Virus record (IMG/VR): IMGVR_UViG_3300028534_000019
Span: 31,091-95,090 of that record
Strand: one strand, 5' to 3'
DNA: 64,000 bases
DNA from: a virus
Lineage: Duplodnaviria > Heunggongvirae > Uroviricota > Caudoviricetes
The notes beneath the pieces were generated by a model. It saw nothing but the letters and a program-made list of their open reading frames with translations. It ran no database searches and was not told the DNA's origin. The position numbers and the translations under genes are program-made. Shown in pieces: positions 1,140 to 48,844 of the stretch; the first letter of the stretch is position 1, and each line of letters starts with the position of its first letter.

Positions 1140-1161
1140 TTAAGTAATTTTACTATATAAT
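1140..1161 (+). promoter_or_regulatory. Promoter candidate (TTAAGT-N10-TATAAT) upstream of gene 32
   Basis: AAAATTAAGTAATTTTACTATATAAT. The same 26-nt pattern recurs at 13876, 26613, 39378 and 48823. Confidence 0.55.
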
Positions 1162-1177
1162 ACATTTACAAAACAAA

Positions 1178-1214
1178 AAGAAGTAATAAAAAAATATAAA
1201 TATTATTACTTCTT
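1178..1214 (+). promoter_or_regulatory. 11-bp stem hairpin in the gene 32 leader
   Basis: AAGAAGTAATA (1178-1188) is the exact reverse complement of TATTACTTCTT (1204-1214), with a 15-nt loop. Confidence 0.5.
1195..1202 (+). promoter_or_regulatory. T4-type late promoter box TATAAATA (candidate)
   Basis: Exact TATAAATA lies in the loop of the 1178-1214 hairpin upstream of gene 32. This 8-mer is also expected by chance in AT-rich DNA. Confidence 0.3.
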
Positions 1215-1261
1215 TAACATATAATAAAGAGTTATCATTTTATTGATGCTCTTTACAGTAT

Positions 1262-1332
1262 GTTAAATAAGGTGCGATTAAATCGTTGGAAATGTTAGAA
1301 ATTGTTAGATTTCGTTAAATAATTGTTAGAAA
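1262..1332 (+). promoter_or_regulatory. Periodic GTTRRA repeats in the gene 32 5' leader (candidate translational operator)
   Basis: GTTAAA at 1262, GTTGGA at 1285, GTTAGA at 1294 and 1304, GTTAAA at 1314, GTTAGA at 1325. The last five are spaced 9-11 nt apart and end 12 nt before the RBS and ATG at 1345. Confidence 0.45.
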
Positions 1333-1344
1333 AAGGAAAAATAT

Positions 1345-2358
1345 ATGTTAGATTTTAACAGCAACTCATTAGATTGGGATTCACTAGAAAAAAATTTAGG
1401 TGCGGATGTCAAAGACAAACCAAAGAAAAACTACAAAGATGATAGATTGTGGAGATTAGCTCAAGATGAAAATGGAGCAGGTGGAGCAATTATCAGATTA
1501 CTACCAGACCCTGAGGGTAAACCATTCATCAGACTTTACAAACACGCTTTTAGTTCATATGACCCTATTAAGAAAAGACAAAGATGGTATATTGGTACTT
1601 CACCACAAACTATTGAACAACCTTGTCCAGCTAGTGATTTATGGCAGTCTTTAATGGGAATTGGTACAGAAGAAGCAAAACAAGAGGCTAGAAGTTTTAA
1701 TAGAAGTATTAAATATATGTGTAACATCAAAGTTATTAAAGACCCAGCAAACCCACAAAATGAGGGTAAAATTTTCTTATGGGAATTTGGTACAAAACTT
1801 AAAGATAAATTTATGGCGGCTCTCAACCCATCAGAAACAGAAAGACAAATGGGAGAAGAACCAAAACAACTTTTCAATCCATTTACAGGGTGTAATGTAA
1901 AACTCAAAATTAAAAAAGTAGCTGGATTCCCTAACTATGATGAAACTGAAATTATGGGTGTAAGTGCTATTTATGAAAATGGAGATGTTGCCAAAGAAGA
2001 TATTCTTGCTAATGGGCATAAACTTTCAGAGTTCTTAAAACCTGATGCTTTTGATTCATATGAAGAACTTAAAGGTAAACTTAAATATGTTCTTGAAACA
2101 TATAAACCTAAACATCTTGATGAAGTTGTTTTTAGAAATGCTGTTGCACCTCTTATTAGTGGAACTAGTGGAACTAATGAGGAAGCACCAAAAACAGAAA
2201 GTGTTAAAGAAAATGTTGTTGATAGTGTAGATGTATCTCAAACTGAAACACCTGCTAATGATGTTCAAGAAACACCAAAAGTAGAAACAAAACAAGATAC
2301 AACCCAATCAGCACCATCAGCACAAAGTGATGATTTATCATTCTTAGAAGACCTTTAG
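1345..2358 (+). CDS. 32: T4 gp32-like single-stranded DNA-binding protein
   Basis: Blocks match my memory of T4 gp32: GAGGAIIRLLP, NIKVIKDPANPQNEGKIFLWEFG, KIKKVAGFPNYDETE, and an acidic Ser/Asp tail ending DDLSFLEDL. Confidence 0.9.
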   Translation: MLDFNSNSLDWDSLEKNLGADVKDKPKKNYKDDRLWRLAQDENGAGGAIIRLLPDPEGKPFIRLYKHAFSSYDPIKKRQRWYIGTSPQTIEQPCPASDLWQSLMGIGTEEAKQEARSFNRSIKYMCNIKVIKDPANPQNEGKIFLWEFGTKLKDKFMAALNPSETERQMGEEPKQLFNPFTGCNVKLKIKKVAGFPNYDETEIMGVSAIYENGDVAKEDILANGHKLSEFLKPDAFDSYEELKGKLKYVLETYKPKHLDEVVFRNAVAPLISGTSGTNEEAPKTESVKENVVDSVDVSQTETPANDVQETPKVETKQDTTQSAPSAQSDDLSFLEDL

Positions 2359-2368
2359 TCTTCTAAGA
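2342..2368 (+). terminator. Hairpin spanning the gene 32 stop codon (terminator or stability element)
   Basis: TCTTAGAAGAC (2342-2352) and GTCTTCTAAGA (2358-2368) are perfect complements with a 5-nt loop, followed by TTT. There is no long U-tract. Confidence 0.45.
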
Positions 2369-2381
2369 TTTGGATTGTAAA

Positions 2382-6088: not shown

Positions 6089-6165
6089 TTATTAATTTTT
6101 TATTTAATATTGTTTTAATCTAAATCATATTATAATTTCATCATATTTAAGGAAAAGGCTATAAT

Positions 6166-6639: not shown

Positions 6640-6640
6640 T

Positions 6641-6708
6641 TTTTAAGTTTCATTTAAGTTTAATATGTTATAATTTTACATATCAAAAGACAAAAAGGAT
6701 TTAAAATG
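6641..6708 (+). repeat. 68-bp promoter/leader cassette, copy A (67/68 identical to 36837-36904)
   Basis: TTTTAAGTTTCATTTAAGTTTAATATGTTATAATTTTACATATCAAAAGACAAAAAGGATTTAAAATG. Contains TTAAGT (6654), TGT-TATAAT (6666-6674), an RBS and the ATG. Confidence 0.85.
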
Positions 6709-6954
6709 TCACAAATTAATTTCAAAAAAGTTTCTTACTATGTAGTTTCAATTATGGTATTATTTTCTTTAATAGCAATATTATCAAAACCATCACAAAT
6801 TGAGATAGATGTAAAATCAGGTACTAAAACTCTAACTTGTGAATTTGCTGATGGATGGAGAGAAATAGAACCTGAAAAAGTTGTTGGGTTTAATGATGAA
6901 AATGGATATTGGACTTTTACAAATGGTTATGCTAAAAATTGTGAGGTTAGATAG
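6706..6954 (+). CDS. Small membrane-anchored protein
   Basis: N-terminal hydrophobic helix YYVVSIMVLFSLIAILS. Confidence 0.6.
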   Translation: MSQINFKKVSYYVVSIMVLFSLIAILSKPSQIEIDVKSGTKTLTCEFADGWREIEPEKVVGFNDENGYWTFTNGYAKNCEVR

Positions 6955-7157
6955 TGTTTGTTGATAAAATTTTAGAAAATGGTGTAGAGTGTGTTTTTAT
7001 TACACACTCCAACAAAATAAGAAAGGCATATAGATATAAAAATATTATTTGGAAAATATATGCTAGTGGTGGTTATTCTGAAGTTTTTGAAAGTGAAATT
7101 CAATTCTCAGGAACAAGAGAAGAAGCAAAACAGAAATATCCTGAATTATTTTTTTAA
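6954..7157 (+). CDS. Hypothetical protein with C-terminal YPELFF motif
   Basis: GTG start overlaps the previous stop. Ends ...EEAKQKYPELFF*. Confidence 0.55.
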   Translation: MFVDKILENGVECVFITHSNKIRKAYRYKNIIWKIYASGGYSEVFESEIQFSGTREEAKQKYPELFF

Positions 7158-7166
7158 AGGTTAGAT

Positions 7167-7463
7167 ATGGATTTAGATAAAATAAGATTAATAGAAACAA
7201 ATAGTGCTTTAGGTTATATGGAAGTAGCATACCTAATACAAATAAATGAAAAAGAAATGCTTTGTGTGTATTCAAATGAAGAAGGATATGTAGGTGACCA
7301 TTCTTGGGTGGTTGGTGAAGTGTATGATATGTTTGAATATGAGAGTGATTATGATGAAGTAATTAATGATAAGAAAGAAATGGTATTAAAAGATTCTCCT
7401 CTATATGGTGATTTTTTATTTGACTTTTTCTTAAAACATCTAATTAAGAATAAACTATGTTAG
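7167..7463 (+). CDS. Hypothetical protein
   Basis: 98-codon ORF in the operon. Confidence 0.55.
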   Translation: MDLDKIRLIETNSALGYMEVAYLIQINEKEMLCVYSNEEGYVGDHSWVVGEVYDMFEYESDYDEVINDKKEMVLKDSPLYGDFLFDFFLKHLIKNKLC

Positions 7464-8191
7464 ACTATATATCTATATTAGCTGGTGGTTCTTGTAAATT
7501 TAATTGTGAATTTTGTGTTGGTAATTCTATAAGAGAAAATATCACACCTCATTATAGTTCAAAAATCAAAGGTTTTTTAGAATGTTATGCTGATAGAACA
7601 CAATTACTTTCAGTTTCAGGTGATACTTCAGACCCATCATTAATAAGTGAAACAATATTTATTCCTGTTGAAGCAAAAGAGTATAATAAAGATATAAAAG
7701 TTAGCATACATACAAGGGATATATATTTTACTGAAAAAGCAATGGATTATGGTTATGATAAAATTGTTTTAAGTATTGATGAAACACTTTCAGAAAATGA
7801 TTATCAAACCTTAGTAAATTATTATTACCACTATGGTTATAATATTAGATTAAGTTTTGTTTTAACATCATCTAATTTTTGGATTATTGATGAATGGAAA
7901 AAAGATTTTCCAGCATTATTTGATATGGAATTAACAATAAGACCTGATGTATTTGAAAAAGATGAGGTTTTTAGAAAACATATTTTTTTAGAAACATTTC
8001 TTGGTATAGATGGAGATTGGCAAAATATAGAGCAATATAAAAATGAATATGGTGCTATTGTTTTAGAAAAGTACCCTAATGTTTGGTATTGGGATTATAA
8101 TGTTACTAATAAAAATCTTGATGTTTTATATCTTTTTAGTAATGGTGACATAAAAAATAATTGTAAGTGGGAAAATTTATATGAAAATTAG
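7457..8191 (+). CDS. Radical SAM superfamily protein
   Basis: CKFNCEFC gives the CxxxCxxC cluster near the N-terminus (ILAGGSCKFNCEFCVG), and LLSVSGDTSDPSL resembles the SAM-binding GGE-type strand. The subfamily is not assignable. Confidence 0.65.
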   Translation: MLDYISILAGGSCKFNCEFCVGNSIRENITPHYSSKIKGFLECYADRTQLLSVSGDTSDPSLISETIFIPVEAKEYNKDIKVSIHTRDIYFTEKAMDYGYDKIVLSIDETLSENDYQTLVNYYYHYGYNIRLSFVLTSSNFWIIDEWKKDFPALFDMELTIRPDVFEKDEVFRKHIFLETFLGIDGDWQNIEQYKNEYGAIVLEKYPNVWYWDYNVTNKNLDVLYLFSNGDIKNNCKWENLYEN

Positions 8192-8423
8192 ATTAATAGA
8201 TTATAAAGAAGAAAGTTTTGATTTTCCTTACCCACCAAATTATGGTATGGATTTAGCAAAAATAAAAATAATGGGTAGTACTTTAGATATAGATAAGAAA
8301 CTATCTAAACATCTTGCTGAGTATAATTATTTTATGTATAAGGGTATGAAGATATTTTTTGAAGATTTAAACAATGACTCAAAAAAGAAAATGTATTCAG
8401 AATACCCTGAATATTACTTTTAG
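8181..8423 (+). CDS. Hypothetical protein with C-terminal YPEYYF motif
   Basis: Ends ...KKMYSEYPEYYF*. Confidence 0.55.
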   Translation: MKIRLIDYKEESFDFPYPPNYGMDLAKIKIMGSTLDIDKKLSKHLAEYNYFMYKGMKIFFEDLNNDSKKKMYSEYPEYYF

Positions 8424-8438
8424 TGATTAGGGGATTAT

Positions 8439-8795
8439 ATGAGTTTAGAAAGTACAGTGGCTTCACAGTCAATACACCCAGGAACATATGAAGTACATTG
8501 GGAAAATACATTCGATACAAAAGAAATAGTTAGTACAATAGAAATAAAACAAACTATATATTCTAGTAATCAATTAAAAAAAGTTCTTAAAAAATTATTA
8601 AAAAATTTTGATAAATTAAATAGTGAAATAAAATTAATAGAACCATCATATAATAATACTGAAGAAAAAATTAATAGAACATTTGCTATAATTGATATGA
8701 ATAATGAATATGAGATTAATAAACTAATTTCAGAAGGGTATTCTTTAAAAGAGATACACCAAGGTAAATTTATATTATACAAAAGGATTATATAA
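8439..8795 (+). CDS. Hypothetical protein
   Basis: 118-codon ORF with GGGGA upstream. Confidence 0.55.
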   Translation: MSLESTVASQSIHPGTYEVHWENTFDTKEIVSTIEIKQTIYSSNQLKKVLKKLLKNFDKLNSEIKLIEPSYNNTEEKINRTFAIIDMNNEYEINKLISEGYSLKEIHQGKFILYKRII

Positions 8796-9316
8796 TGGTT
8801 TTAAATTTTTATGGCGGGCCGGGTATTGGTAAAAGTACAAAAGCATCAGAGTTATTTTTTAGATGTAAACAACAAAACTTACAGGTTGAATTAATACACG
8901 AGTTTGCTAAAGATATGGTTTATTCTCAATCTATGGAAATATTGAAAGACCAATATTATGTAGGTGCTAATCAACATCATAGGGTGTGGAGAGTTCATAA
9001 CTATTACTTACAACAAGGTTTTAAAGAGGATGAATTTCTTATAATAACTGATAGTCCTATTTTGTTGGGTGCGGCTTATACTGATGATGATAAATTAAGA
9101 GATTTTATTTTTGAAACTTCAGAAAGATATAATAATATTAATATTATGCTAACAAGAAAATTTAATTACCAAGAAGAGGGAAGAAACCAAGATTTAAAAG
9201 GTGCTATTGAGATTGATAAAAAAGTTTTAGATTTATTAAATAAAACTTCTTATATAGAAACAAATGATACAGATAAAATTTTATCTCTAATTAAGGAAAA
9301 AATGAGTACAATATAA
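8795..9316 (+). CDS. P-loop NTPase (kinase/ATPase-like)
   Basis: Walker A motif FYGGPGIGKST at the N-terminus, and IITDSP as a possible Walker B. Confidence 0.6.
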   Translation: MVLNFYGGPGIGKSTKASELFFRCKQQNLQVELIHEFAKDMVYSQSMEILKDQYYVGANQHHRVWRVHNYYLQQGFKEDEFLIITDSPILLGAAYTDDDKLRDFIFETSERYNNINIMLTRKFNYQEEGRNQDLKGAIEIDKKVLDLLNKTSYIETNDTDKILSLIKEKMSTI

Positions 9317-9335
9317 ATATTAAAAAGGAGATAAA

Positions 9336-9914
9336 ATGACACTTGAAACATTTGCTGTTGAGTATAATAACTTAAAAATAGAAAAAGTATATATAAATTC
9401 ACACACATTAGAATCAGTAAAAAAAAGATTTAATATAGATTTAAAAATATCAGACCTAAAATCTGATATTTCTTTATCTATTGCTTTTCAAAAATATAAA
9501 AAGAATTTTACAGTAAATGATTTTAAGTTTGTTATCTTTATAAATGATATTGTACTTGTATTAAATATATATGAAAAAAATAATAAGTTTTATGGTAAAG
9601 TACTAACAGCATTATCACAAAAACAATTTGAATTAAGCAAAAATTTTTATCTTGGTAGTATTTTTGGTAATTTTGAGTGTACTATAAAAGAATATGCTTA
9701 TGAAGAAGTTTATTTTAATAATAGTTTTGAAAATATAAAAAAATCACTAAATGATTACAAACAATTACCAATATCACTAGATATTGCAACAAGTGATAGT
9801 GATATTAAAAGATTGAGAAAAGCAAACAGAACTGTTGATGTACCTTATATAAAAGGTTATTTTATAAAAGTTGTTGATGGTATTGATTATCTTATTATAG
9901 GTAGTAAAAAATAA
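9336..9914 (+). CDS. Hypothetical protein
   Basis: 192-codon ORF with AAAGGAG RBS. Confidence 0.6.
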   Translation: MTLETFAVEYNNLKIEKVYINSHTLESVKKRFNIDLKISDLKSDISLSIAFQKYKKNFTVNDFKFVIFINDIVLVLNIYEKNNKFYGKVLTALSQKQFELSKNFYLGSIFGNFECTIKEYAYEEVYFNNSFENIKKSLNDYKQLPISLDIATSDSDIKRLRKANRTVDVPYIKGYFIKVVDGIDYLIIGSKK

Positions 9915-9931
9915 GTATATGGAGGGTTAAT

Positions 9932-10387
9932 ATGAATAAACAAAAGTTTTATTTTAATAGTGAACATTTTGAATATGCTATTAATGACATTAAAAATAGA
10001 GTCCTATTGAATGTTAAAAAAGATGGTTTACAGATTGTTTCAGTGTTTAAGGATGGTTTACCTTTGGGTGTAAGGTTATCAAATGAATTTAATACAGGGT
10101 TGAGTATTATAAATTATGAAAAGTTTAGCTCAAATTCTGATAGTGTAACATTGCTTAAAGATGATGGTTTAAGAGGTGCTACAAATATATTAATTGTAAG
10201 TGACTTAGTACAAGATAAAAAGGGTTTTGAAAAAATTGTAAAATATATTAAAGAAAAATATGATAAAGAACCTATTATATACACTTTATTTGGTGACCCT
10301 TTGGAAAATAATACTAGATGGAATTTTACATTTAAAGAAAATGGACAGAAAATTCAATTCATTCCTTGGGTTGGAATGGATGTATAA
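9932..10387 (+). CDS. Hypothetical protein (weak phosphoribosyltransferase-like pattern)
   Basis: IVSVFKDGLPLGVRLS and NILIVSDLVQDKKG resemble the PRTase Rossmann and PRPP loops, but the canonical D-x-T-G-x-T is absent. Confidence 0.3.
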   Translation: MNKQKFYFNSEHFEYAINDIKNRVLLNVKKDGLQIVSVFKDGLPLGVRLSNEFNTGLSIINYEKFSSNSDSVTLLKDDGLRGATNILIVSDLVQDKKGFEKIVKYIKEKYDKEPIIYTLFGDPLENNTRWNFTFKENGQKIQFIPWVGMDV

Positions 10388-10411
10388 ATAATTCTAAAAT
10401 AGGAGAAAGAA

Positions 10412-10999
10412 ATGAAAAAATTTAGTGAATATATGAGTGAAAAAGCACTTGTAGAAGAAATGGAAGATAAGATAGGTTTAATGTTATATATGGCAGAAAA
10501 AAGTGATATTATAGCTGAATCTTATGATTTTGAAAATTTAACAGAAAGCCAAAGAATTGTACTTGAAGAAGGTGTAAATGATTGGTTAAACAAAGTTGGT
10601 CTTAAATTACATAAAACAAAAGGTATTATTGATTATTTAGCTGATTTTACTAAAGGTACAGGTAAAGTTCTTATGTCAGCAATTAAAGGTGATAAAGAGG
10701 CTGTTAAAGAACAACTTAAAAATGTTAAAAAAGAAGAAGTTTTAGATTTCTTACTTAAATTAGATATGGCTACATTACATATTGTTACCGGCCCGATACA
10801 CTTAATTGATGCTGTTACAGGTTGGGATTTAATGGCTAATGTTAAAGCAGTAGCTAAAACAGCAACTGATAAACTTAAAGAATTTTATCAAGCAATGAAA
10901 AAAGTAAAAGAAACAATTACAACTGTTTTACAAGGTACTAAACAAAAGAAAATGTTACAATTAGCAACAAACTTAGAAACAACAATTCCTGCACCTTAG
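10412..10999 (+). CDS. Hypothetical protein
   Basis: 195-codon ORF with GGAGAAAG RBS. Confidence 0.6.
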   Translation: MKKFSEYMSEKALVEEMEDKIGLMLYMAEKSDIIAESYDFENLTESQRIVLEEGVNDWLNKVGLKLHKTKGIIDYLADFTKGTGKVLMSAIKGDKEAVKEQLKNVKKEEVLDFLLKLDMATLHIVTGPIHLIDAVTGWDLMANVKAVAKTATDKLKEFYQAMKKVKETITTVLQGTKQKKMLQLATNLETTIPAP

Positions 11000-11019
11000 A
11001 ACAAAAAAAAGGATTTTAA

Positions 11020-11538
11020 ATGCCAAAATTTGGTAAAAGAAGTAAAAGAAACTTAGAAACTTGTCATAGAGATTTAAGAATTATATGTAATGAAGCAATT
11101 AAATATTTTGATTTTTCTGTTATATATGGTATAAGAAGTGAAGAAGAACAATTTAAACTTTTTAATGAAGGCAAATCTCAACTTGATGGTATCCATAAAA
11201 AATCAAAACACCAAGGCAGAAAGTGTGAAAAACTTGATGCTGGTGTAGATGAAGAACACAAAATTTTAACAGATGAAGATGGTGATGCTATTGCTTCTTT
11301 TGCTGTTGATTTAATGCCTTACTATAAAGGTTTCAATCCTTTTACAAATGAGTCAGGAACTAAACTTTTTTATTACCAAGCAGGATTAATAATGGGGATA
11401 GCCGCTAGACTTTATGAAGAGGGAAAAATAAAACATACTTTAAGATGGGGTGGAAATTGGGATAATGATATGGACTTTTTCGGAGATTCTCATTTCTTTG
11501 ATTTACCACACTTTGAATTAGTAATACCTAAAAAATAG
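11020..11538 (+). CDS. Peptidase M15-family cell-wall hydrolase (putative endolysin)
   Basis: SKHQ...AVDLMPY...DLPHFEL gives the H...D...H zinc-ligand pattern of M15 peptidases. YGIRSEEEQFKLF is also typical of the family. Confidence 0.65.
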   Translation: MPKFGKRSKRNLETCHRDLRIICNEAIKYFDFSVIYGIRSEEEQFKLFNEGKSQLDGIHKKSKHQGRKCEKLDAGVDEEHKILTDEDGDAIASFAVDLMPYYKGFNPFTNESGTKLFYYQAGLIMGIAARLYEEGKIKHTLRWGGNWDNDMDFFGDSHFFDLPHFELVIPKK

Positions 11539-13875: not shown

Positions 13876-13897
13876 TTAAGTATTTTTACTGTATAAT
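13876..13897 (+). promoter_or_regulatory. Promoter candidate (TTAAGT-N10-TATAAT)
   Basis: AAAATTAAGTATTTTTACTGTATAAT, 29 nt upstream of the ATG at 13926. Confidence 0.55.
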
Positions 13898-15816: not shown

Positions 15817-15838
15817 TTAAGCATATAGTAGCTATAAT
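15817..15838 (+). promoter_or_regulatory. Promoter candidate (TTAAGC-N10-TATAAT)
   Basis: TTAAGCATATAGTAGCTATAAT. The -10 element and leader are shared with 32565-32605. Confidence 0.5.
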
Positions 15839-15870
15839 ACTACATATAAAACATAAAAGGATTAGAAATG
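15830..15870 (+). repeat. 41-bp -10/leader cassette (40/41 identical to 32565-32605)
   Basis: AGCTATAATACTACATATAAAACATAAAAGGATTAGAAATG versus ...GGATTAAAAATG. Confidence 0.85.
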
Positions 15871-16212
15871 GCAACAAGAAGTACAATTTGGATAGAAAAT
15901 GAAGATAAAAGTTTTGAAGGTATTTATGCTCATTGGGATGGATATTTATCACATAATGGTAGAATACTTTTAAATAACTATAATTCAGAAGAAAAAGCAA
16001 GAGAACTTATTGCTAAGGGTAATATTTCAGTTTTAGATGAAACTATTGACACTTGTAGATTTTATGATGAAGAGGGTTATAAATCAAGTTCTGATGATTT
16101 AACTGATTATCACGAAGAGTATCTATATCTTTTCAAAGATGGTAAATGGTTTGTATCAGAAGATGCTAAAAATTTTGTTGAATTAACAGAAAAACTTATA
16201 GGAGAAGAGTAA
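15868..16212 (+). CDS. Hypothetical protein
   Basis: 114-codon ORF following the promoter cassette. Confidence 0.6.
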   Translation: MATRSTIWIENEDKSFEGIYAHWDGYLSHNGRILLNNYNSEEKARELIAKGNISVLDETIDTCRFYDEEGYKSSSDDLTDYHEEYLYLFKDGKWFVSEDAKNFVELTEKLIGEE

Positions 16213-16592
16213 TGTTTTCAGATAAGTATGTAAAAATTTTAAAAGAGGATTGGGAAGTAATCAAAAAAGATTATAACTCAATGCTGAAAGAAAATGAAAA
16301 GTTAAAAAAAGAAAATGCTGAGTTACAGAAATATAAAGCACAAGATGATTTACTTTATAGTTATGAAAACACATTAGTTGATAAAGATATTCAGATAAAC
16401 TCTTTAAAGGAAGAAATTCATAATTTAAAATATAATTTACTTATATTAGAAGATAAACTAGATAGAAGTGCTATTATGGAAAAATTATATCTTGAAACTT
16501 TACATAAGGAAAGATTGAAAAGAAGTTGTTTTAAAGAATGTGATGAATATGAAACTGTAAATACAGAGAGTATTTTAGATAAAACTGTTTAA
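16212..16592 (+). CDS. Hypothetical coiled-coil protein
   Basis: Heptad-like K/E/L-rich sequence. The ATG overlaps the upstream stop. Confidence 0.55.
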   Translation: MFSDKYVKILKEDWEVIKKDYNSMLKENEKLKKENAELQKYKAQDDLLYSYENTLVDKDIQINSLKEEIHNLKYNLLILEDKLDRSAIMEKLYLETLHKERLKRSCFKECDEYETVNTESILDKTV

Positions 16593-16601
16593 AGGATTAA
16601 A

Positions 16602-17051
16602 ATGATATATTCAAATAATAAAAAAGTAAAACACGACTATGAAATAATTGAAACATTTGAGGCAGGTGTTGTTTTGAGCGGTCCGCAAGTAAAATCAATT
16701 AGAAAAGGTTCTTTAAGCCTTAAAGGTTCTTATGTTAGTCTTGATGATGGTGTTTTATCATTAAAACAATACTCACTTGCTAGACCTGATTATTTGGATG
16801 CTTTTAGTTCTTTTGATGATAAACCAATAAAATTTTTACTCAAAAAAAGAGAGATTAAAAAATTACAAAAAAAGATTCAAGAAAAAGGTTTAACATTATC
16901 TATAACAAAAGTTTATCAACCTGAAAATACTAGATTTATTAAGGCTGAGTTAGTTCTTGTGAGAGGTAAAAAACTATATGATAAAAGAGAAGATTTAAAA
17001 AAGAAAACACAAGAAATGGATATGAAAAAGGCTATAAAATATGATAGATAA
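16602..17051 (+). CDS. smpB: SmpB (tmRNA-binding protein)
   Basis: NNKKVKHDYEIIETFEAGVVLSGPQVKSIRKGSLSLKGSYV matches the conserved SmpB N-terminal block (NKKA.HDY.I...EAGI.L.G.EVKS.R). Size is 149 aa with a basic C-terminal tail. Confidence 0.9.
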   Translation: MIYSNNKKVKHDYEIIETFEAGVVLSGPQVKSIRKGSLSLKGSYVSLDDGVLSLKQYSLARPDYLDAFSSFDDKPIKFLLKKREIKKLQKKIQEKGLTLSITKVYQPENTRFIKAELVLVRGKKLYDKREDLKKKTQEMDMKKAIKYDR

Positions 17052-17250
17052 TCTAAAAAGTGCTGATGAAATATATTTAGTAGTACAGTTTGGAGCAAAA
17101 GATTTTAACAATAGAACACAAGAATTGATTGATGAAAATTATATTCCATTTAGTGATGTTGCTGTTCAAAGTTTTCACGATGAATTTTGCTTTTCACAAC
17201 AGTTTATAAAAAATCCAAAATACATAGAAGAAACAAAAAGGAAAATATAA
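17041..17250 (+). CDS. Hypothetical protein
   Basis: 69-codon ORF overlapping the smpB end by 11 nt. Confidence 0.45.
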   Translation: MIDNLKSADEIYLVVQFGAKDFNNRTQELIDENYIPFSDVAVQSFHDEFCFSQQFIKNPKYIEETKRKI

Positions 17251-18041: not shown

Positions 18042-18056
18042 AAAAAAGGCTAAAAA

Positions 18057-18579: not shown

Positions 18580-18601
18580 TTAAATAAAAATATTATATAA
18601 T
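18580..18601 (+). promoter_or_regulatory. Promoter candidate (TTAAAT-N10-TATAAT) upstream of dnaK
   Basis: TTAAATAAAAATATTATATAAT, 38 nt upstream of the ATG at 18640. Confidence 0.4.
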
Positions 18602-20490: not shown

Positions 20491-20501
20491 AAGAGGAAAA
20501 A

Positions 20502-21305
20502 TTGAAAAAATTATATAAAATTCTTGAAATTGAAGAAACTTCTACAACAGTAGAAATAAAAAAAGCATATAGAAAATTAGCTAAAAAATACCACCCTGAT
20601 GTTTGTAAAGAAGAGGGTGGTGAAGATAAGTTTAAAGAAATTAATAGAGCATATGAAGTTCTAAGCAATCCACAAGAAAAACAAAAGTATGATAGATTTG
20701 GTGATGAAATGTATGAAAAAATGGGGTCAGGTGGTGGAAGACCTAATCCAAATGCTGATGAGTTTGCAGAAGCAATGGCATCATTTTTCAACCAAAAGGG
20801 AAATCCCCGACAAGGTAATCCTTTTGGTATGGGTGGTAATCCTTTTATTCATACAACAATTCAAGCATATATTTCGATAGAAGATTTATTTAAAGGTACT
20901 TCTATACAATTACAAGATGGTACTAAAGTAAAAATACCACCTAGAACAATACCGGGTAGTAGGGTAAGAGTTAAAGGCAAAGGTATGTCAGATGGTAAAA
21001 ATACAGGAGATTTATTTATTATCATAACACCAAAAAATAATGATAAAGAATTTGTTGAGAATGATACTATTATAAAGATTATCAAAATTGATTTAGTTAG
21101 TATGATTTTTGGAAATGAAATAAAATATAATCATTATGGTAAAGATTTAATTGTTACTGTTCCAAAAAATACAAAGCCCGGTGACTTTGTACAAATTCCC
21201 AATCAGGGCTTAGGTACTCAGGGTTCATTAATTTTACATTTAGATTTAGAATTACCAAAAGCAGAAGATTTAGATGAAGAAAAAGTAAAAGAATTATTTA
21301 ATTAA
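20502..21305 (+). CDS. J-domain co-chaperone (DnaJ/CbpA-like, no zinc-finger domain)
   Basis: TTG start after AAGAGG. J domain is YKILEIEETSTTVEIKKAYRKLAKKYHPDV with HPD, followed by a G/F-rich linker and a DnaJ C-terminal beta domain. No CxxCxGxG repeats. Confidence 0.85.
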   Translation: MKKLYKILEIEETSTTVEIKKAYRKLAKKYHPDVCKEEGGEDKFKEINRAYEVLSNPQEKQKYDRFGDEMYEKMGSGGGRPNPNADEFAEAMASFFNQKGNPRQGNPFGMGGNPFIHTTIQAYISIEDLFKGTSIQLQDGTKVKIPPRTIPGSRVRVKGKGMSDGKNTGDLFIIITPKNNDKEFVENDTIIKIIKIDLVSMIFGNEIKYNHYGKDLIVTVPKNTKPGDFVQIPNQGLGTQGSLILHLDLELPKAEDLDEEKVKELFN

Positions 21306-21312
21306 TATACAA

Positions 21313-21334
21313 TTAAGGTTTCTTTTGCTATAAT
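21313..21334 (+). promoter_or_regulatory. Promoter candidate (TTAAGG-N10-TATAAT)
   Basis: TTAAGGTTTCTTTTGCTATAAT. TATAATTTCATCATAT is shared with the 6089-6165 intergenic region. Confidence 0.5.
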
Positions 21335-24380: not shown

Positions 24381-24447
24381 TTTTAATTTTTAATTTTCTT
24401 TTAATATTAAAATGCTATAATTACATAATTAAAAAAGAAGGATATTT

Positions 24448-26612: not shown

Positions 26613-26634
26613 TTAAGTAATATTACTATATAAT
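26613..26634 (+). promoter_or_regulatory. Promoter candidate (TTAAGT-N10-TATAAT)
   Basis: AAAATTAAGTAATATTACTATATAAT, 31 nt upstream of the ATG at 26665. Confidence 0.55.
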
Positions 26635-28889: not shown

Positions 28890-28911
28890 TTAACATATTT
28901 TATGTTATAAT
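28890..28911 (+). promoter_or_regulatory. Promoter candidate (TTAACA-N10-TATAAT with TGn)
   Basis: TTAACATATTTTATGTTATAAT, upstream of thyX. Confidence 0.45.
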
Positions 28912-31217: not shown

Positions 31218-31229
31218 TTTAATAAAAGG

Positions 31230-31251
31230 TTAAGGTTGTATTAGCTATAAT
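31230..31251 (+). promoter_or_regulatory. Promoter candidate (TTAAGG-N10-TATAAT)
   Basis: TTAAGGTTGTATTAGCTATAAT, followed by an RBS and the abortive ATG ACA TAA at 31286-31294. Confidence 0.5.
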
Positions 31252-32489: not shown

Positions 32490-32552
32490 CCCCTAACACA
32501 TCTACATACATATAATCACAACAACAAAACAACAAAAAATTTTAATATTACA

Positions 32553-32573
32553 TTAAGAATATTCAGCTATAAT
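32553..32573 (+). promoter_or_regulatory. Promoter candidate (TTAAGA-N9-TATAAT)
   Basis: TTAAGAATATTCAGCTATAAT. The -10 element and leader are shared with 15830-15870. Confidence 0.5.
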
Positions 32574-33183: not shown

Positions 33184-33194
33184 TTAATTTTAAT

Positions 33195-33216
33195 TTAAGC
33201 ATTTAATAGATATAAT
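33195..33216 (+). promoter_or_regulatory. Promoter candidate (TTAAGC-N10-TATAAT)
   Basis: TTAAGCATTTAATAGATATAAT. Confidence 0.5.
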
Positions 33217-34814: not shown

Positions 34815-35183
34815 ATGGTAAAATTTCATAAAGATTATGATTTTAAAGGTGCTGATTTAGAAATCTTAAAAAAATTTCATAAAGATAATAATATTTCAAG
34901 AGTTGTATTAGATATAGAACTTAAAAAAGATAAAATTATGTTTTATTGGATTGAATATTCTAATTTTAGATATTTGTATGTTGATGATTTAAAAAGAAGT
35001 AGAGATATTAATATTAGCATATTCAAAATTAATGATATTATTTCTATAACAAATAGAGATTTTAACACACAAATATATTTTAAAGATGATATGTTTTATA
35101 TACCAAATAATAAAAATACTGATGTATTAATTGATGAATTTATCGAAGGTGATACATCAGTGAAAATTTTAAGAAAGATTTAA
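34815..35183 (+). CDS. Hypothetical protein
   Basis: 122-codon ORF. Confidence 0.5.
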   Translation: MVKFHKDYDFKGADLEILKKFHKDNNISRVVLDIELKKDKIMFYWIEYSNFRYLYVDDLKRSRDINISIFKINDIISITNRDFNTQIYFKDDMFYIPNNKNTDVLIDEFIEGDTSVKILRKI

Positions 35184-35201
35184 TATTTTTTAGTGTATAA
35201 T
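35180..35201 (+). promoter_or_regulatory. Promoter candidate (TTAATA-N10-TATAAT)
   Basis: TTAATATTTTTTAGTGTATAAT, 19 nt upstream of the ATG at 35220. Confidence 0.4.
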
Positions 35202-46864: not shown

Positions 46865-46872
46865 TATTTATA
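46865..46872 (-). promoter_or_regulatory. T4-type late promoter box TATAAATA (minus strand)
   Basis: The plus strand reads TATTTATA, 51 nt upstream of the tube paralogue 1 ATG. AAAGGAGG RBS. Confidence 0.4.
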
Positions 46873-46886
46873 TATGGTATTTTTTA

Positions 46887-47399: not shown

Positions 47400-47410
47400 T
47401 ATATATCCTT

Positions 47411-47923
47411 TTAAAATGTTTCAATATATGATGCTTTGGCTGTTATACTAAATTCAGCTATTGAAGCACCAGCACTATTATCTAAAGTCGGCCCGCCTAC
47501 TGTAACTAAAATACAATCTTTGAATTTAATAATATCTTGAAAGGTATTAATATCAAAGTCAGTGGCAGTTTGAACTAATATATCAAACCTTTGGTTTTTA
47601 GGGTATTCTCTTGAAAATTTTTGTGAAGCACTTGACCACATTCTATATAGTGTAAAATTTTCTAAATCTTTCATAGTAACAGTAACTTGAAAATTTTCTA
47701 ATCTACCCACTGCAAATCTCCATTCCTCAGCTACCCATTCCTCAATAGGTGATGAATTAACCTCAGCTAACTGTATATTAGTTATAGCGGCCGTCAGTGT
47801 ATCAGGGTCAACTGTAATAGCACCAGCGGCTGTTCCACCTGTTGGTAATATCATAACCTTAAATTTAGAGGGGTCTTGCCATCTAATAGACTTAGCAAGT
47901 TGTATAGGTGCTGATAAAGCCAT
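47411..47923 (-). CDS. Divergent tail-tube-fold protein, paralogue 3 (tube or tube-initiator-like)
   Basis: Same size and position as the tube genes. Starts MALSAP..., using the third in-frame ATG, which is preceded by GGAG. Shares a weak FKV...W...F.VTV pattern. Confidence 0.5.
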   Translation of the reverse strand: MALSAPIQLAKSIRWQDPSKFKVMILPTGGTAAGAITVDPDTLTAAITNIQLAEVNSSPIEEWVAEEWRFAVGRLENFQVTVTMKDLENFTLYRMWSSASQKFSREYPKNQRFDILVQTATDFDINTFQDIIKFKDCILVTVGGPTLDNSAGASIAEFSITAKASYIETF

Positions 47924-47937
47924 AAGCATCTCCATAT

Positions 47938-47955
47938 TTTATAAATATTTATAAA
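47938..47955. promoter_or_regulatory. Perfect 18-bp palindrome carrying TATAAATA on both strands (bidirectional late promoter candidate)
   Basis: TTTATAAATATTTATAAA is its own reverse complement. The plus-strand box is 47940-47947 and the minus-strand box is 47946-47953. It lies between divergent tail genes. Confidence 0.55.
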
Positions 47956-47964
47956 AGGAAAACA

Positions 47965-48654
47965 ATGGCTTTAGTATATAAAGAAGAATATAAAAATATA
48001 GCTAAAATAGGTGGTAAAGAAATTCATTTTAAACCGTGGAATACAAAAAATGAAAAAGAATTTTTAATTGCTGTTGAATCTGATGAAGATATTACAGATT
48101 CAATGCTATATGAATTATTAGTTAAACCTTGTATAAAAGAACAAGATATTGTACTTGATGAATACGAACAAAAATTACTTATGATTGAAATGAGGAAAAA
48201 ATCTATTGGTAGTACTTTCCCATTGAGTTACAAATGTTCTAATTGTAAAAATCTTAATGAGATTGAAGTAGAATTAGATGATATTATTAAATATAATGAA
48301 CCAAAATATGATGAGGTTACCGTAGAAGATATAACTATATCTTTTGGAGTTCCAAGAACTGAAAAATTAATCAAAAGACTTGATGAAGTTGATACAAAAG
48401 TAGAAAAAACTTTTTATAATTTTTTAATACATATAAACTATATTATTATTGATGGTGTTAAAGAAGATACATTTAGTTTTGAGGAGTTAAAAGATTATAT
48501 TGAAAGTTTACCAACATCTATTTTTGATGAATTTTATGAAAAATATAGTGCTATGAGTCCTAATTTAAGGTTTGAGTTAGACCAATATTGTATGTTTTGT
48601 AATGAGAAAAATCAGATTAATCTTGAAGGAATCCCAAATTTTTTATGGGCATAA
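47965..48654 (+). CDS. 26: Baseplate hub assembly protein (T4 gp26-like) with zinc ribbon, paralogue 1
   Basis: HFKPWNTKNEKEFL...LLMIEMRKKSIGS...YKCSNCKN...CMFCNEKN, ending IPNFLWA. This resembles the T4_baseplate (gp26) pattern from memory. Confidence 0.5.
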   Translation: MALVYKEEYKNIAKIGGKEIHFKPWNTKNEKEFLIAVESDEDITDSMLYELLVKPCIKEQDIVLDEYEQKLLMIEMRKKSIGSTFPLSYKCSNCKNLNEIEVELDDIIKYNEPKYDEVTVEDITISFGVPRTEKLIKRLDEVDTKVEKTFYNFLIHINYIIIDGVKEDTFSFEELKDYIESLPTSIFDEFYEKYSAMSPNLRFELDQYCMFCNEKNQINLEGIPNFLWA

Positions 48655-48819
48655 TGGTAGAGTCATCTTTACTAAGTATATACCAATTTTACTCTAATAT
48701 GAAATTTTTTGGAAATTATTCTATTCCTGAGGTTGATGAAATGTTGCCTTTTGAAAGAGATATTTTTTACTCTTTATTAGTTAAACTTAAAGAAGAACAA
48801 AATAAAGTTGGTATGTAAA
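48655..48819 (+). CDS. 54-aa hypothetical protein (below the ORF-track cutoff; in frame with the upstream gene)
   Basis: MVESSLLSIYQFYSNMKFFGNYSIPEVDEMLPFERDIFYSLLVKLKEEQNKVGM*. The ATG directly follows the TAA of the previous gene, in the same frame. Confidence 0.4.
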
Positions 48820-48822
48820 AAT

Positions 48823-48844
48823 TAAGTATTTTTTAGATATAATA
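48823..48844 (+). promoter_or_regulatory. Promoter candidate (TTAAGT-N10-TATAAT)
   Basis: AAAATTAAGTATTTTTTAGATATAAT. Confidence 0.5.

What the first reader, a model, noticed from the sequence alone, without database searches (positions are those of the whole stretch)
1140..48844. Phage-wide promoter word TTAAGN-N9/10-TATAAT with an unusually short spacer
At least 16 intergenic regions carry TTAAG(T/G/C), or a close variant, 9-10 nt upstream of a perfect TATAAT. An ACAT(A)-rich start region and an AAAGGA RBS usually follow. Sites are 226, 1140, 6654, 13876, 15817, 18580, 21313, 26613, 28890, 31230, 32553, 33195, 35180, 36850, 39378 and 48823.

Five of them share a longer 26-nt consensus, AAAATTAAGTAwTTTTACTrTATAAT. 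These precede gene 32, the ClpP-like protease, the ParM-like gene, the tmRNA and the second gp26-like gene.

The upstream element sits at about -28 to -23. That is too close for a classical -35 hexamer, so it is either a host-specific extended -10 or -16 style element or the binding site of a phage transcription factor, analogous to MotA boxes.
Basis: seen in the sequence. Interest (0 to 1): 0.5.

Follow-up and report, generated by a model that had tools for sequence, protein, structure and literature searches.

The report
Phage promoters with a TTAAG activator box
The repeated word is real and marks about 19 non-late promoters of a T4-like phage: each has a perfect -10 box, no -35 box, and a TTAAG box one helical turn closer, which probably binds an activator protein whose identity (phage-encoded or the host regulator HsrA/CosR) is open.

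Summary
TTAAGN-N9/10-TATAAT occurs 14 times against 1.1 expected. Twelve of the 13 plus-strand copies are intergenic. With close variants, 19 gene-proximal promoters carry TTAA 15-16 bp upstream of TATAAT. Ten of them carry a second TTAA(G/T) exactly 11 bp further upstream. No -35 hexamer is present. T4-type late promoters (TATAAATA) form a separate class.

The same word at the same spacing is the top positional signal in Campylobacter phages CP220 and NCTC12673, where it is mostly tandem (TTAAG-N6-TTAAG-N10/11-TATAAT). It is also the top signal in uncultured relatives, and as a single TTAA(A/G) box in Vibrio phage phiKT1024. T4 lacks it. I did not find it at this spacing in a Campylobacter plasmid or 136 kb of Campylobacterota chromosome.

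Two readings remain close:
- The box is read by an unidentified phage protein, analogous to MotA. It is conserved across phages of two host phyla, and in the Vibrio phage it precedes T4-middle-type genes, beside a separate early class with a GTTTAC -35.
- The tandem form matches the published operator of the host regulators HsrA/CosR in sequence, 11-bp phasing, strand and distance to the -10.

I found no MotA, AsiA or OmpR-family homologue.

The parts
215..247 (+). Tandem-box promoter: distal TTAAG at 215, proximal ATAAG at 226, -10 TATAAT at 242. It lies upstream of the ORF starting at 274.
1140..1161 (+). Single-box promoter (A-tract + TTAAGT at 1140, TATAAT at 1156), 183 nt upstream of gp32. 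A TATAAATA late word at 1195 lies in the same leader.
6104..6136 (+). Tandem-box promoter: TTAAT at 6104, TTAAT at 6115, TATAAT at 6131. It lies upstream of the ORF at 6166.
6643..6674 (+). Tandem-box promoter: TTAAG at 6643, TTAAGT at 6654, then N10 and TATAAT at 6669. The TTAA offsets (26 and 15 from the -10) equal those I read in the H. pylori Php1227 oligonucleotide. It heads a block of small ORFs (6706-11538).
13876..13897 (+). Single-box promoter (AAAAATTAAGT, TATAAT at 13892) upstream of the Clp-protease-like gene.
15817..15838 (+). Single-box promoter (TTAAGC, TATAAT at 15833) upstream of the ORF block 15868-18569, which includes SmpB and a NADAR-domain protein.
18580..18601 (+). Single-box variant promoter (AAAAAATTAAAT, TATAAT at 18596) upstream of DnaK and DnaJ.
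21302..21334 (+). Tandem-box promoter: TTAAT at 21302, TTAAGG at 21313, TGc-TATAAT at 21329. It lies upstream of the NUDIX gene.
24390..24421 (+). Tandem-box promoter: TTAAT at 24390, TTAAT at 24401, TGc-TATAAT at 24416. It lies upstream of the RlaP-like gene.
26613..26634 (+). Single-box promoter (AAAAATTAAGT, TATAAT at 26629) upstream of the actin-like (ParM/MreB-like) gene.
28890..28911 (+). Single-box variant promoter (TTAACA, TGt-TATAAT at 28906) upstream of thyX.
31219..31251 (+). Tandem-box promoter: TTAAT at 31219, TTAAGG at 31230, TATAAT at 31246. It lies upstream of ORF 31346 and the SPFH gene.
32542..32573 (+). Tandem-box promoter: TTAAT at 32542, TTAAGA at 32553, then N10 and TATAAT at 32568. 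It lies upstream of small ORFs starting at 32603.
33184..33216 (+). Tandem-box promoter: TTAAT at 33184, TTAAGC at 33195, TATAAT at 33211. It lies upstream of ORF 33246 and the MoxR-like ATPase.
35169..35201 (+). Tandem-box promoter: TTAAG at 35169, TTAAT at 35180, TATAAT at 35196. It lies upstream of the DUF2201/VWA metallopeptidase-like gene.
36839..36870 (+). Tandem-box promoter: TTAAG at 36839, TTAAGT at 36850, then N10 and TATAAT at 36865. It is a near-duplicate of the cassette at 6643-6705.
39378..39399 (+). Single-box promoter (AAAAAATTAAGT, TATAAT at 39394), 52 nt upstream of the tmRNA gene (39452-39772).
42357..42378 (+). Single-box variant promoter (TTAAAT, TATAAT at 42373) upstream of ORF 42406-42903, which I read by eye as MazG-like (no Pfam hit).
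48822..48843 (+). Single-box promoter (AAAAATTAAGT, TATAAT at 48838) upstream of the T4_baseplate (gp26-like) gene.

Best explanation
**What the sites are**
- The 19 sites are the phage's non-late promoters.
- Each has a consensus sigma-70-type -10 hexamer (TATAAT) and no -35 hexamer.
- Each has a TTAAG(T) box whose first T lies 16 (sometimes 15) bp upstream of the -10, at about -28 to -24.
- Half of them also have a second TTAA(G/T) box exactly one helical turn (11 bp) further upstream.

**How I infer they work**
- I infer that they are activator-type promoters. A sequence-specific protein bound to the box, on one face of the helix next to sigma region 4, replaces the missing sigma/-35 contact and recruits host RNA polymerase.
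- This is what MotA does at T4 middle promoters and what PhoB does at pho boxes (both recalled from the literature).

**Who reads the box**
- My slightly preferred reader is a phage-encoded protein that is not yet identified and is unrelated in sequence to MotA/AsiA.
- On this reading these are middle-type promoters of a three-class T4-like programme. The early class would use host-type promoters lying elsewhere in the genome. This class covers replication, nucleotide-metabolism, chaperone and auxiliary genes. The late class uses TATAAATA.

**Shown versus inferred**
- Shown: the motif, its geometry, its position in front of genes, its separation from the late class, and its conservation in related phages of two host phyla.
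- Inferred: that a protein binds the box, that this protein is phage-encoded, and the timing of expression.
For: **The motif and its geometry**
- Strong enrichment, a fixed spacing and intergenic placement.
- No -35 hexamer.
- A separate late class, TATAAATA: 8 of 13 + strand copies are intergenic and several others lie just before the next gene.

**The positional test recovers known biology**
- The same positional 4-mer test run on T4 recovers its known classes: GTTTAC at the -35 position and GCTT of the Mot box at offset 18. It shows no TTAA at offset 16.

**The box follows the phage lineage across host phyla**
- TTAA at offset 16 or TAAG at offset 15 is the top or second signal in the window, in uncultured relatives L088 and L089, and in Campylobacter phages CP220 and NCTC12673.
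- L004 yields too few sites for this test but has 5 exact matches against 0.18 expected.
- TTAA at offset 16 is also the top signal in L091 and in the first 50 kb of Vibrio phage phiKT1024, and it is among the top three over the whole phiKT1024 genome.

**The complete Vibrio phage genome has two TATAAT classes**
- One is GTGTTTACT-N16-TATAAT, with about 17 sites, most of them in regions of small ORFs and tRNA genes.
- The other is TTAA(A/G/T)-N11-TATAAT, with about 17 sites. These precede the sliding clamp, gp32, the clamp loader, the primase-helicase, nrdB, thioredoxin, GroES, GroEL, the MreB-like gene and the gp55-like sigma factor (annotation).
- From what I recall of T4, these are the kinds of genes served by MotA-dependent middle promoters.

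**Fit within the window**
- Single-box promoters precede homologues of those same genes (gp32, the actin-like gene, chaperones, thyX).
- The window's closest relatives, L004 and L089, use almost only single boxes. That suits a MotA-like monomer better than a dimeric response regulator.
Against: - No candidate factor was found.
  - Pfam gave no MotA, AsiA, sigma-70, winged-helix or HTH hit on 70 window ORFs.
  - phmmer with T4 MotA and AsiA found nothing better than E = 0.045 in the window, the complete NCTC12673 genome or the complete phiKT1024 genome.
  - A clade-conserved 217-aa protein of unknown function gave a medium-confidence model with no significant fold match.
- No separate host-type early class is visible in the 64-kb window, and none showed up in the positional test on two thirds of the NCTC12673 genome. 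If one truly does not exist, a factor made after infection could not start the programme.
- In the Campylobacter phages and in half of the window sites, the box pair looks exactly like a known host operator (see the first rival). This explanation treats that as coincidence or mimicry.
- The window covers only part of the genome, and the host is unknown.
Confidence: 0.4

Rival explanations
1. The box is the operator of a host protein: the essential orphan OmpR/PhoB-type response regulator of Campylobacterota, called HsrA or HP1043 in Helicobacter pylori and CosR in Campylobacter jejuni. The phage copies the architecture of the host's HsrA/CosR-bound promoters. Those promoters have a -10 hexamer, no -35, and two TTTAAG half-sites 11 bp apart immediately upstream of the -10. 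Host polymerase plus this constitutively active regulator would then transcribe the phage's pre-late genes from the first minute.
For: **Published host operator**
- HP1043 consensus is TTTAAG-N5-TTTAAG. [quoted passage not shown] HP1043 activates Php1227 in vitro (PMC5253667; PMC8345958).
- CosR ChIP-seq and footprints give TTAA-n7-TTAA at promoters. The DNA-binding domain is nearly identical to that of HP1043. Targets include rRNA, tRNA and ribosomal-protein promoters (bioRxiv 10.64898/2026.08.04.742711).

**Matching geometry**
- The Php1227 oligonucleotide reads TTAAG-CAAAAC-TTAAA-N10-TATCAT. Its TTAA offsets are 26 and 15 from the hexamer that I take to be its -10. The window promoters have offsets 26/27 and 15/16.
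- In the window, a distal TTAA is in register in 10 of 19 promoters (binomial P = 8e-12).
- NCTC12673 has about 24 promoters of the form TTAAG-N6-TTAAG-N10/11-TATAAT. Of the 11 plus-strand intergenic CP220 promoters, 8 have a distal TTAA in register by my reading.
- The C. jejuni '-35 consensus' TTTAAGTnTT with a 15-19 nt spacer (Wosten 1998, as quoted in PMC3824568) coincides with the distal box.

**Hints about the host and the biology**
- The phage tmRNA tag ANNTDYTGNTVLSA shares NNTDY and its length with the H. pylori tag VNNTDYAPAYAKAA. This hints at a Campylobacterota host.
- NCTC12673 infects oxidatively stressed cells poorly (PMC8540345), and oxidation impairs CosR binding.
Against: - The proximal box is conserved at the same place in phiKT1024 and L091, which are Vibrio-type phages with 0-1 distal boxes. 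To my knowledge Vibrio has no HsrA/CosR.
- Nine of the 19 window promoters, and nearly all promoters in the closest relatives L004 and L089, have only one half-site. HP1043 does not bind a single half-site stably in vitro.
- Conservation is inverted. In host sites the distal hexamer, with its G, is the conserved one. In the window the proximal box is the conserved one, and six of the ten distal boxes are TTAAT.
- I found no TTAAG-N11-TATAAT in pTet (45 kb) or in 136 kb of Campylobacterota chromosome. Only tens to about 200 sites are expected per host genome, so this is weak evidence.
- Strong promoters in the Arcobacter, Sulfurovum, Sulfurospirillum and Campylobacter sp. loci have canonical TTGACA-N17 -35 boxes.
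- The host of the window phage is not known.
Confidence: 0.33
2. No dedicated protein reads the box. TTAAG repeats in phase with the helix are a DNA-shape or curvature signal, or are contacted directly by RNA polymerase. This would be the strong 10-11 bp periodic signal reported upstream of the -10 in C. jejuni and H. pylori promoters in place of a -35 box.
For: - The 11-bp phasing of the boxes.
- The periodic signal of Petersen et al. 2003, as summarised in PMC3824568.
- All non-late promoters in the window carry the box, so it may act with unmodified host polymerase.
Against: - A shape signal would not conserve a specific pentamer, including its G, at a distance fixed to within 1 bp.
- The word is not enriched at this spacing in T4, in pTet or in the Campylobacterota chromosomal loci.
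- RNA polymerase is not known to read bases at -28 to -24 (from memory).
Confidence: 0.1
3. The upstream word has no function of its own. It is carried along because whole promoter-leader cassettes were duplicated within the genome, and only the TATAAT matters.
For: Cassette duplication is real. The segments around 6669 and 36865 are 89% identical over 82 nt, and 15833 and 32568 share the same leader.
Against: - Most pairs of sites share only the box and the -10; identity is about 60% or less over 82 nt.
- The same word at the same spacing occurs in phages whose gp32 is only 43-61% identical, and in cultured Campylobacter and Vibrio phages with no DNA similarity to the window.
Confidence: 0.04
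4. TTAAGN is a divergent -35 hexamer used with an exceptionally short spacer, or it is part of an extended -10 or -16 element read by the host sigma factor.
For: TTAAGT resembles the C. jejuni '-35' word TTTAAGTnTT.
Against: - The host word lies 15-19 nt from the -10, which is where the distal box sits, not the proximal one.
- A hexamer-to-hexamer spacer of 9-10 nt is far outside the 15-19 nt range of sigma-70 promoters (established knowledge).
- TGn precedes the -10 in only 5 of 19 promoters, and 10-11 variable bases separate the box from the -10.
Confidence: 0.03

Closest known systems
Promoters annotated in Campylobacter phage NCTC12673 (Kropinski et al. 2011 annotation 'promoter, extended -10 region'; 'novel A/T rich promoter motifs' in Sacher et al. 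2018, PMC6024767)
   Same: Same word, spacing and strand: TTAAG-N6-TTAAG-N10/11-TATAAT, about 24 sites. Those I checked coincide with the annotated promoter features, and one sits upstream of gp32. The RNA-seq study states that most phage transcription appears to be driven by one of two newly predicted A/T-rich promoter motifs; I could not see the motifs themselves.
   Different: There the sites are almost always tandem. In the window only about half are tandem and the distal box is weaker. The phages are only distantly related (terminase about 39% identical). In the papers I could search, the sites were not linked to any binding protein.
HsrA (HP1043) / CosR-bound promoters of Helicobacter pylori and Campylobacter jejuni
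   Same: Half-site TTTAAG or TTAA, 11-bp phasing, coding strand, placed directly upstream of a sigma-80/sigma-70 -10 with no -35. The TTAA offsets I read in Php1227 (26 and 15) match those here (26/27 and 15/16).
   Different: Host sites need both half-sites and conserve the distal one. Here the proximal box is the invariant one, and 9 of 19 sites have it alone. The box also occurs in Vibrio phages.
T4 middle promoters (MotA box plus -10, with AsiA-remodelled sigma-70)
   Same: A -10 hexamer, no usable -35, and a 9-10 bp box centred near -30 that replaces it. In the related Vibrio phage the box precedes the same kinds of genes (gp32, gp45, clamp loader, nrd, gp55).
   Different: The word is different: TTAAG(T) rather than (a/t)3TGCTT(t/c)A. 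It lies about 3 bp closer to the -10 (TTAA at offset 16 against GCTT at offset 18). I detected no MotA or AsiA homologue.
pho-box promoters (PhoB, OmpR/PhoB family)
   Same: Two direct repeats with an 11-bp period, about 10 bp upstream of the -10, in place of a -35. The activator contacts sigma region 4 (recalled from the literature, not tested here).
   Different: The half-site sequence is different. The regulator is phosphorylation-dependent. No phage genome is known to use it genome-wide.
C. jejuni RpoD promoter consensus (Wosten 1998: TTTAAGTnTT, then 15-19 nt, then TATAAT; Petersen 2003: a periodic signal instead of a -35)
   Same: The word TTAAGT and the -10 hexamer. With a 17-18 nt spacer the host word falls exactly on the distal box.
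   Different: The invariant phage box is one helical turn closer to the -10 than the host '-35' word.

Membership tests
Classical sigma-70 promoter (-35/-10) | A -10 hexamer close to TATAAT | tested here: met
   Perfect TATAAT in all 19 sites.
Classical sigma-70 promoter (-35/-10) | A -35 hexamer (TTGACA-like) 16-18 bp upstream of the -10 | tested here: not met
   The two-hexamer scan found 119 sites against 130 expected, and none of its 60 listed best hits uses the -10 of a TTAAG promoter. No -35-like 4-mer is enriched at offsets 22-24, whereas the T4 and phiKT1024 controls show one.
Extended -10 promoter | TGn immediately upstream of the -10 | tested here: not met
   TGn is present in 5 of 19 promoters. 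The conserved word lies 10-11 bp further upstream.
T4 MotA-dependent middle promoter | A MotA box, (a/t)(a/t)(a/t)TGCTT(t/c)A, centred at -30 | tested here: not met
   The word here is TTAAG(T). The T4 control shows GCTT at offset 18, while the window shows TTAA at offset 16 and TAAG at offset 15.
T4 MotA-dependent middle promoter | The phage encodes MotA and AsiA | tested here: not met
   No Pfam MotA or AsiA hit on 70 window ORFs. phmmer with T4 MotA and AsiA gave nothing better than E = 0.045 in the window, its relatives, the complete NCTC12673 genome or the complete phiKT1024 genome. The part of this phage's genome outside the window was not available.
T4 MotA-dependent middle promoter | Activity requires phage protein synthesis (middle timing) | not testable with these tools
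   This needs time-course RNA-seq or chloramphenicol-block experiments.
HsrA (HP1043) / CosR-dependent promoter | Half-site TTTAAG (or TTAA) on the coding strand | tested here: met
   Proximal TTAA in 18 of 19 sites and TTAAG in 12 of 19, all on the gene strand. Consensus taken.
HsrA (HP1043) / CosR-dependent promoter | Two half-sites with centres 11 bp apart; both are needed for binding in vitro | tested here: inconclusive
   A second TTAA is in register in 10 of 19 sites (P = 8e-12), but 9 of 19 lack it and 6 of the 10 distal boxes are TTAAT.
HsrA (HP1043) / CosR-dependent promoter | The site lies immediately upstream of the -10 and replaces the -35 | tested here: met
   TTAA offsets are 15/16 and 26/27 here, against 15 and 26 from the hexamer I take to be the -10 in the Php1227 oligonucleotide.
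HsrA (HP1043) / CosR-dependent promoter | The host encodes HsrA/CosR and the protein binds the site | not testable with these tools
   The host is unknown. The only hints are the tmRNA tag and the shared motif with Campylobacter phages. No binding data exist.
T4-type late promoter (gp55) | TATAAATA at -10, with no upstream element | tested here: not met
   The finding's sites have TATAAT(A/T/G), not TATAAATA. TATAAATA forms a separate class at other intergenic sites.

The most novel reading that the evidence does not exclude
The TTAA(G) box marks a previously unrecognised middle-transcription system that does not use MotA or AsiA. It would be shared by a large clade of T4-like phages infecting two bacterial phyla (Vibrio and Campylobacterota). 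In the Campylobacterota-infecting branch its operator has become indistinguishable from that of the host's essential master regulator HsrA/CosR. The phage factor and the host regulator would then share, or compete for, the same operators. This would tie phage gene expression to the control of the host's rRNA, tRNA and ribosomal-protein promoters, or let the phage hijack that control.
Probability: 0.25. Interest if true: 0.75.

Novelty: new variant of a known kind. Interest (0 to 1): 0.55.

Why it matters
- **An open question in phage transcription.** How T4-like phages that lack MotA and AsiA switch from early to middle transcription is unresolved. A fixed box at -28, conserved from Vibrio phages to Campylobacter phages and read by something other than MotA, gives a concrete DNA handle for finding the factor.
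- **A possible new host dependency.** That factor is redox-sensitive and is being pursued as a drug target. This bears on the use of Campylobacter phages in poultry and on why infection fails in oxidatively stressed cells.
- **Practical use.** In either case the word gives a simple, validated rule for annotating transcription units in this clade: box plus -10 for non-late genes, TATAAATA for late genes.

Tried and rejected
- **Identifying the phage by DNA similarity.** There is no megablast match in the phage collection. gp32 found no relatives in the viral contig collection. Exact-protein look-ups failed for the terminase and DnaK. Look-ups with window proteins reached only an 8.6-kb upstream extension and a 7.9-kb contig at the 3' end, so the rest of the genome was not reached.
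- **A first motif search.** EM with ribosome-binding sites included converged on a mixture of Shine-Dalgarno and TATAAT signals. I repeated it with the ribosome-binding sites masked.
- **Fishing for host DNA.** I used a GroEL sequence recalled from memory as a hook. That is too small to see a regulon of tens to about 200 sites, so the absence of the word there is weak evidence.
- **An unrelated phage of the same host group.** H. pylori phage KHP30 shows no TTAAG promoter. It has its own intergenic word, AACCCTTAAAAT.
- **A phage-encoded OmpR-like protein.** None was found in about 470 kb of phage DNA, while the same search found such proteins in the bacterial loci.
- **MotA and AsiA homologues.** None found.
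- **Clade-conserved proteins of unknown function.**
  - Family A (window 42406-42903) looks MazG-like by eye.
  - Family B (about 100 aa) has sub-threshold GapR_DNA-bd hits (best 20.9 bits against a 22.6-bit cut-off). It is not in the window, and in L089 its own gene sits behind a TTAAG promoter.
  - Family C (about 217 aa) gave an AlphaFold model with pLDDT 72 and no PDB fold match at E < 0.4.
- **Literature.** In the papers I could search, I found none that links phage promoters to CosR or HsrA. Wosten 1998 is not held.

Full report
**1. What the window is**

The sequence is 26% G+C with almost all genes on the + strand. It encodes T4-type proteins:
- gp32, RNase H, a large terminase, neck and baseplate proteins;
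- many auxiliary genes: two DnaK, DnaJ, SmpB, a tmRNA, ThyX, Sir2, NADAR, MoxR plus a VWA protein, an actin-like protein and dCMP deaminase.

There is no nucleotide match to any phage in the collection. The terminase is about 40% identical to those of Vibrio phage phiKT1024 and the Campylobacter phages CP220/CPt10. The window is therefore a piece of an uncultured T4-like phage.

**2.

- TTAAGN-N9/10-TATAAT occurs 14 times against 1.1 expected, 13 of them on the + strand.
- The distance between TTAAG and TATAAT is 11 nt (10 sites) or 10 nt (3 sites) and essentially nothing else.
- Twelve of the 13 + strand copies fall in the 5% of the window that is intergenic.
- An unanchored EM search of intergenic DNA recovers the same motif.
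- With one-base variants there are 19 promoters. Each lies 18-183 nt upstream of a gene start, and 13 of them lie 26-31 nt upstream.
- Part of the similarity between sites is due to duplicated promoter-leader cassettes.

**3.

- Ten of the 19 promoters carry a second TTAA(G/T) exactly 11 bp upstream of the first (P = 8e-12).
- There is no -35 hexamer, and TGn is present in only 5 of 19.
- A second promoter class, the T4 late word TATAAATA, sits in other intergenic regions. These precede the nuclease-terminase pair, the neck protein, the 1419-aa tail/baseplate-region protein, and both sides of the divergent region at 47936-47964. One copy lies in the gp32 leader.
- The TTAAG class is therefore the non-late class.

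**4. The word in other phages**

| Sequence | Result |
|---|---|
| CP220, first 50 kb | 13 exact TTAAG-N11-TATAAT sites; most intergenic ones have a distal TTAA or TTCA |
| NCTC12673, complete | about 24 promoters TTAAG-N6-TTAAG-N10/11-TATAAT, including one before gp32; they coincide with features annotated 'promoter, extended -10 region' |
| L004, L088 (41% G+C), L089 (gp32 48-57% identical) | the box is present, mostly single |
| L091 and Vibrio phage phiKT1024 | a single TTAA(A/G/T) box at the same offset |
| L090 | no TTAA enrichment at this offset |
| T4 | no box |

The unbiased positional 4-mer test ranks TTAA at offset 16 or TAAG at offset 15 first or second in the window, L088, L089, CP220 and NCTC12673. 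TTAA at offset 16 ranks first in L091 and in the first 50 kb of phiKT1024. L004 gave too few sites for this test. On T4 the same test returns the known GTTTAC -35 and the GCTT of the Mot box. That T4 result serves as a positive control.

**5. The word in host DNA**

The exact word at this spacing is absent from C. jejuni plasmid pTet. It is also absent from eight Campylobacterota chromosomal loci (136 kb) and from 72 loci of other bacteria. Strong promoters in the Arcobacter, Sulfurovum, Sulfurospirillum and Campylobacter sp. loci have ordinary TTGACA-N17 boxes. The sample is small.

**6. The HsrA/CosR lead**

- The H. pylori essential orphan response regulator HP1043 (HsrA) binds TTTAAG-N5-TTTAAG on the coding strand. 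The site lies immediately upstream of the -10 of promoters that lack a -35, and HP1043 activates Php1227 in vitro.
- A 2026 preprint gives TTAA-n7-TTAA for its C. jejuni orthologue CosR. The DNA-binding domain is nearly identical, and targets include rRNA, tRNA and ribosomal-protein promoters.
- The Php1227 oligonucleotide reads TTAAG-N6-TTAAA-N10-TATCAT. Its TTAA offsets from what I take to be the -10 are 26 and 15, the same as window sites 6643-6674 and 36839-36870.
- The C. jejuni '-35 consensus' TTTAAGTnTT, at 15-19 nt from the -10, falls on the distal box.
- The tmRNA tag resembles the H. pylori tag.
- This is a specific match in word, phase, strand and position. It is the main reason to take a host-factor model seriously.

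**7. Why I do not rank the host-factor model first**

- The invariant element across the clade is the proximal box alone.
- In the complete phiKT1024 genome there are two TATAAT classes:
  - GTGTTTACT-N16-TATAAT, most of whose sites lie in the regions of small ORFs and tRNA genes;
  - TTAA(A/G/T)-N11-TATAAT, before the sliding clamp, gp32, clamp loader, primase-helicase, nrdB, thioredoxin, GroES/EL, the MreB-like gene and the gp55-like sigma factor.
- This is the early/middle split of T4 with a different middle box.
- An element that stays fixed while the early class changes with the host is what a phage-encoded reader predicts.
- To my knowledge Vibrio has no HsrA/CosR.
- In the window, the nine single-box promoters precede gp32, the actin-like gene, the Clp-like gene, thyX, DnaK/DnaJ, the SmpB block, the tmRNA, a MazG-like gene and a baseplate hub gene.
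- The ten tandem promoters mostly head blocks of small ORFs without database matches, and auxiliary genes. This may hint at two sub-classes, but NCTC12673 uses the tandem form before gp32, so the hint is weak.
- HP1043 does not bind a single half-site stably, and the window's distal boxes are mostly TTAAT.

**8. The search for a reader**

- Pfam found no transcription-factor domain on 70 window ORFs.
- I found no OmpR-family protein in about 470 kb of phage DNA.
- I found no MotA or AsiA homologue, including in two complete genomes.
- Clade-wide clustering gave three small families:
  - one that looks MazG-like by eye;
  - one of about 100 aa with sub-threshold GapR DNA-binding similarity, not in the window;
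  - one of 217 aa with no Pfam hit and no significant fold match.
- No reader can be named.

**9. Verdict**

The sites are real promoters of the non-late class. They have no -35 and are built around a fixed box at about -28 that most likely binds an activator.

| Reading | Probability |
|---|---|
| A phage-encoded, MotA-like but unrelated factor | about 0.40 |
| The host HsrA/CosR-type regulator | about 0.33 |
| Direct or DNA-shape recognition | about 0.10 |
| No function (hitch-hiking on duplicated cassettes) | about 0.04 |
| A misplaced -35 or an extended -10 | about 0.03 |

The remainder is unassigned. The promoters themselves were already annotated in NCTC12673. What is new is their extension to this uncultured clade and to Vibrio phages, the second in-phase box, the identity with the HsrA/CosR operator, and the two-class structure in phiKT1024. 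In the papers I could search, I found no link between these phage promoters and HsrA/CosR.

Noticed in passing
window 1195, 11716, 14575, 42924, 42946, 47940 (+) / 47946 (-), 49655, 62437; also 46865 (-), and 9312, 10383, 39349, 53948 at gene ends: The T4-type late promoter word TATAAATA forms a separate class. It precedes the nuclease-terminase pair, the neck protein, tail/baseplate genes and the minus-strand cluster. At 47936-47964 the palindrome TATAAATATTTATA gives back-to-back late promoters for divergent genes only 29 bp apart.
   Followed up: partly
window 39452-39772 (tmRNA), 16602-17051 (SmpB), 18640-21305 (DnaK, DnaJ), 39844-41706 (second DnaK): The phage carries its own trans-translation pair (tmRNA plus SmpB) and an Hsp70 system. 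The tag peptide ANNTDYTGNTVLSA shares NNTDY and its length with the H. pylori tag but ends in LSA, not AA. Relative L089 also encodes SmpB.
   Followed up: partly
window 6640-6705 and 36834-36901; also 15833 and 32568: Near-identical promoter-plus-leader cassettes (89% identity over 82 nt) stand in front of unrelated genes. This suggests that regulatory cassettes move or are copied within the genome.
   Followed up: partly
window 1162-1344 (gp32 leader); L004, L088, L090, L091 at about 9800-10000; L092 at about 11020-11095: The long gp32 leader holds 4-5 spaced copies of (C/T)GTTA(A/G), seen for example as cgttgga, tgttaga and cgttaaa. Similar repeats recur upstream of gp32 in distant relatives. 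They may form a translational operator for gp32 autoregulation.
   Followed up: no
L092 + L096 + L097 + L098 (Vibrio phage phiKT1024, complete genome): There are two distinct TATAAT promoter classes. About 17 are GTGTTTACT-N16-TATAAT, most of them in regions of small ORFs and tRNA genes. About 17 are TTAA(A/G/T)-N11-TATAAT, before replication, nucleotide-metabolism, chaperone and gp55-like genes. There is no MotA or AsiA homologue.
   Followed up: partly
L088 16419-16730, L089 15019-15345, L091 13583-13870, L092 15338-15628, L087 38959-39303 (-): A protein of about 100 aa is conserved in relatives, in the Vibrio phage and in NCTC12673 (gp098). It has consistent sub-threshold similarity to the GapR DNA-binding domain (best E = 2.8e-4, 20.9 bits). 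It was not found in the 64-kb window.
   Followed up: partly
L085 (Helicobacter phage KHP30): 7925, 13730, 16357, 21322, 23615: Five intergenic regions start with the word AACCCTTAAAAT (one as AACCCTTGAAAT), directly after the stop codon of the preceding gene. It is unrelated to the TTAAG box.
   Followed up: no
L005-L009, L011 (Campylobacterota groES and tRNA-Met upstream regions): The groES and tRNA-Met promoters of a Campylobacter sp., Sulfurospirillum, Arcobacter and Sulfurovum carry canonical TTGACA-N17-TA(n)AAT. The groES promoters of L005 and L007 are followed by a CIRCE-like inverted repeat. Loss of the -35 is therefore not general in this phylum.
   Followed up: no
window 57811-57832 (+): One exact TTAAGA-N10-TATAAT lies inside the ORF 57447-58292, with no Shine-Dalgarno sequence or start codon after it. 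It is either chance or an internal promoter.
   Followed up: no
L001 11097-11118 (CP220): One CP220 promoter reads TTAAGCAAAACTTAAG-N11-TATAAT. Its box pair is identical to the H. pylori Php1227 HP1043 site (TTAAGCAAAACTTAAA) at 15 of 16 positions.
   Followed up: no
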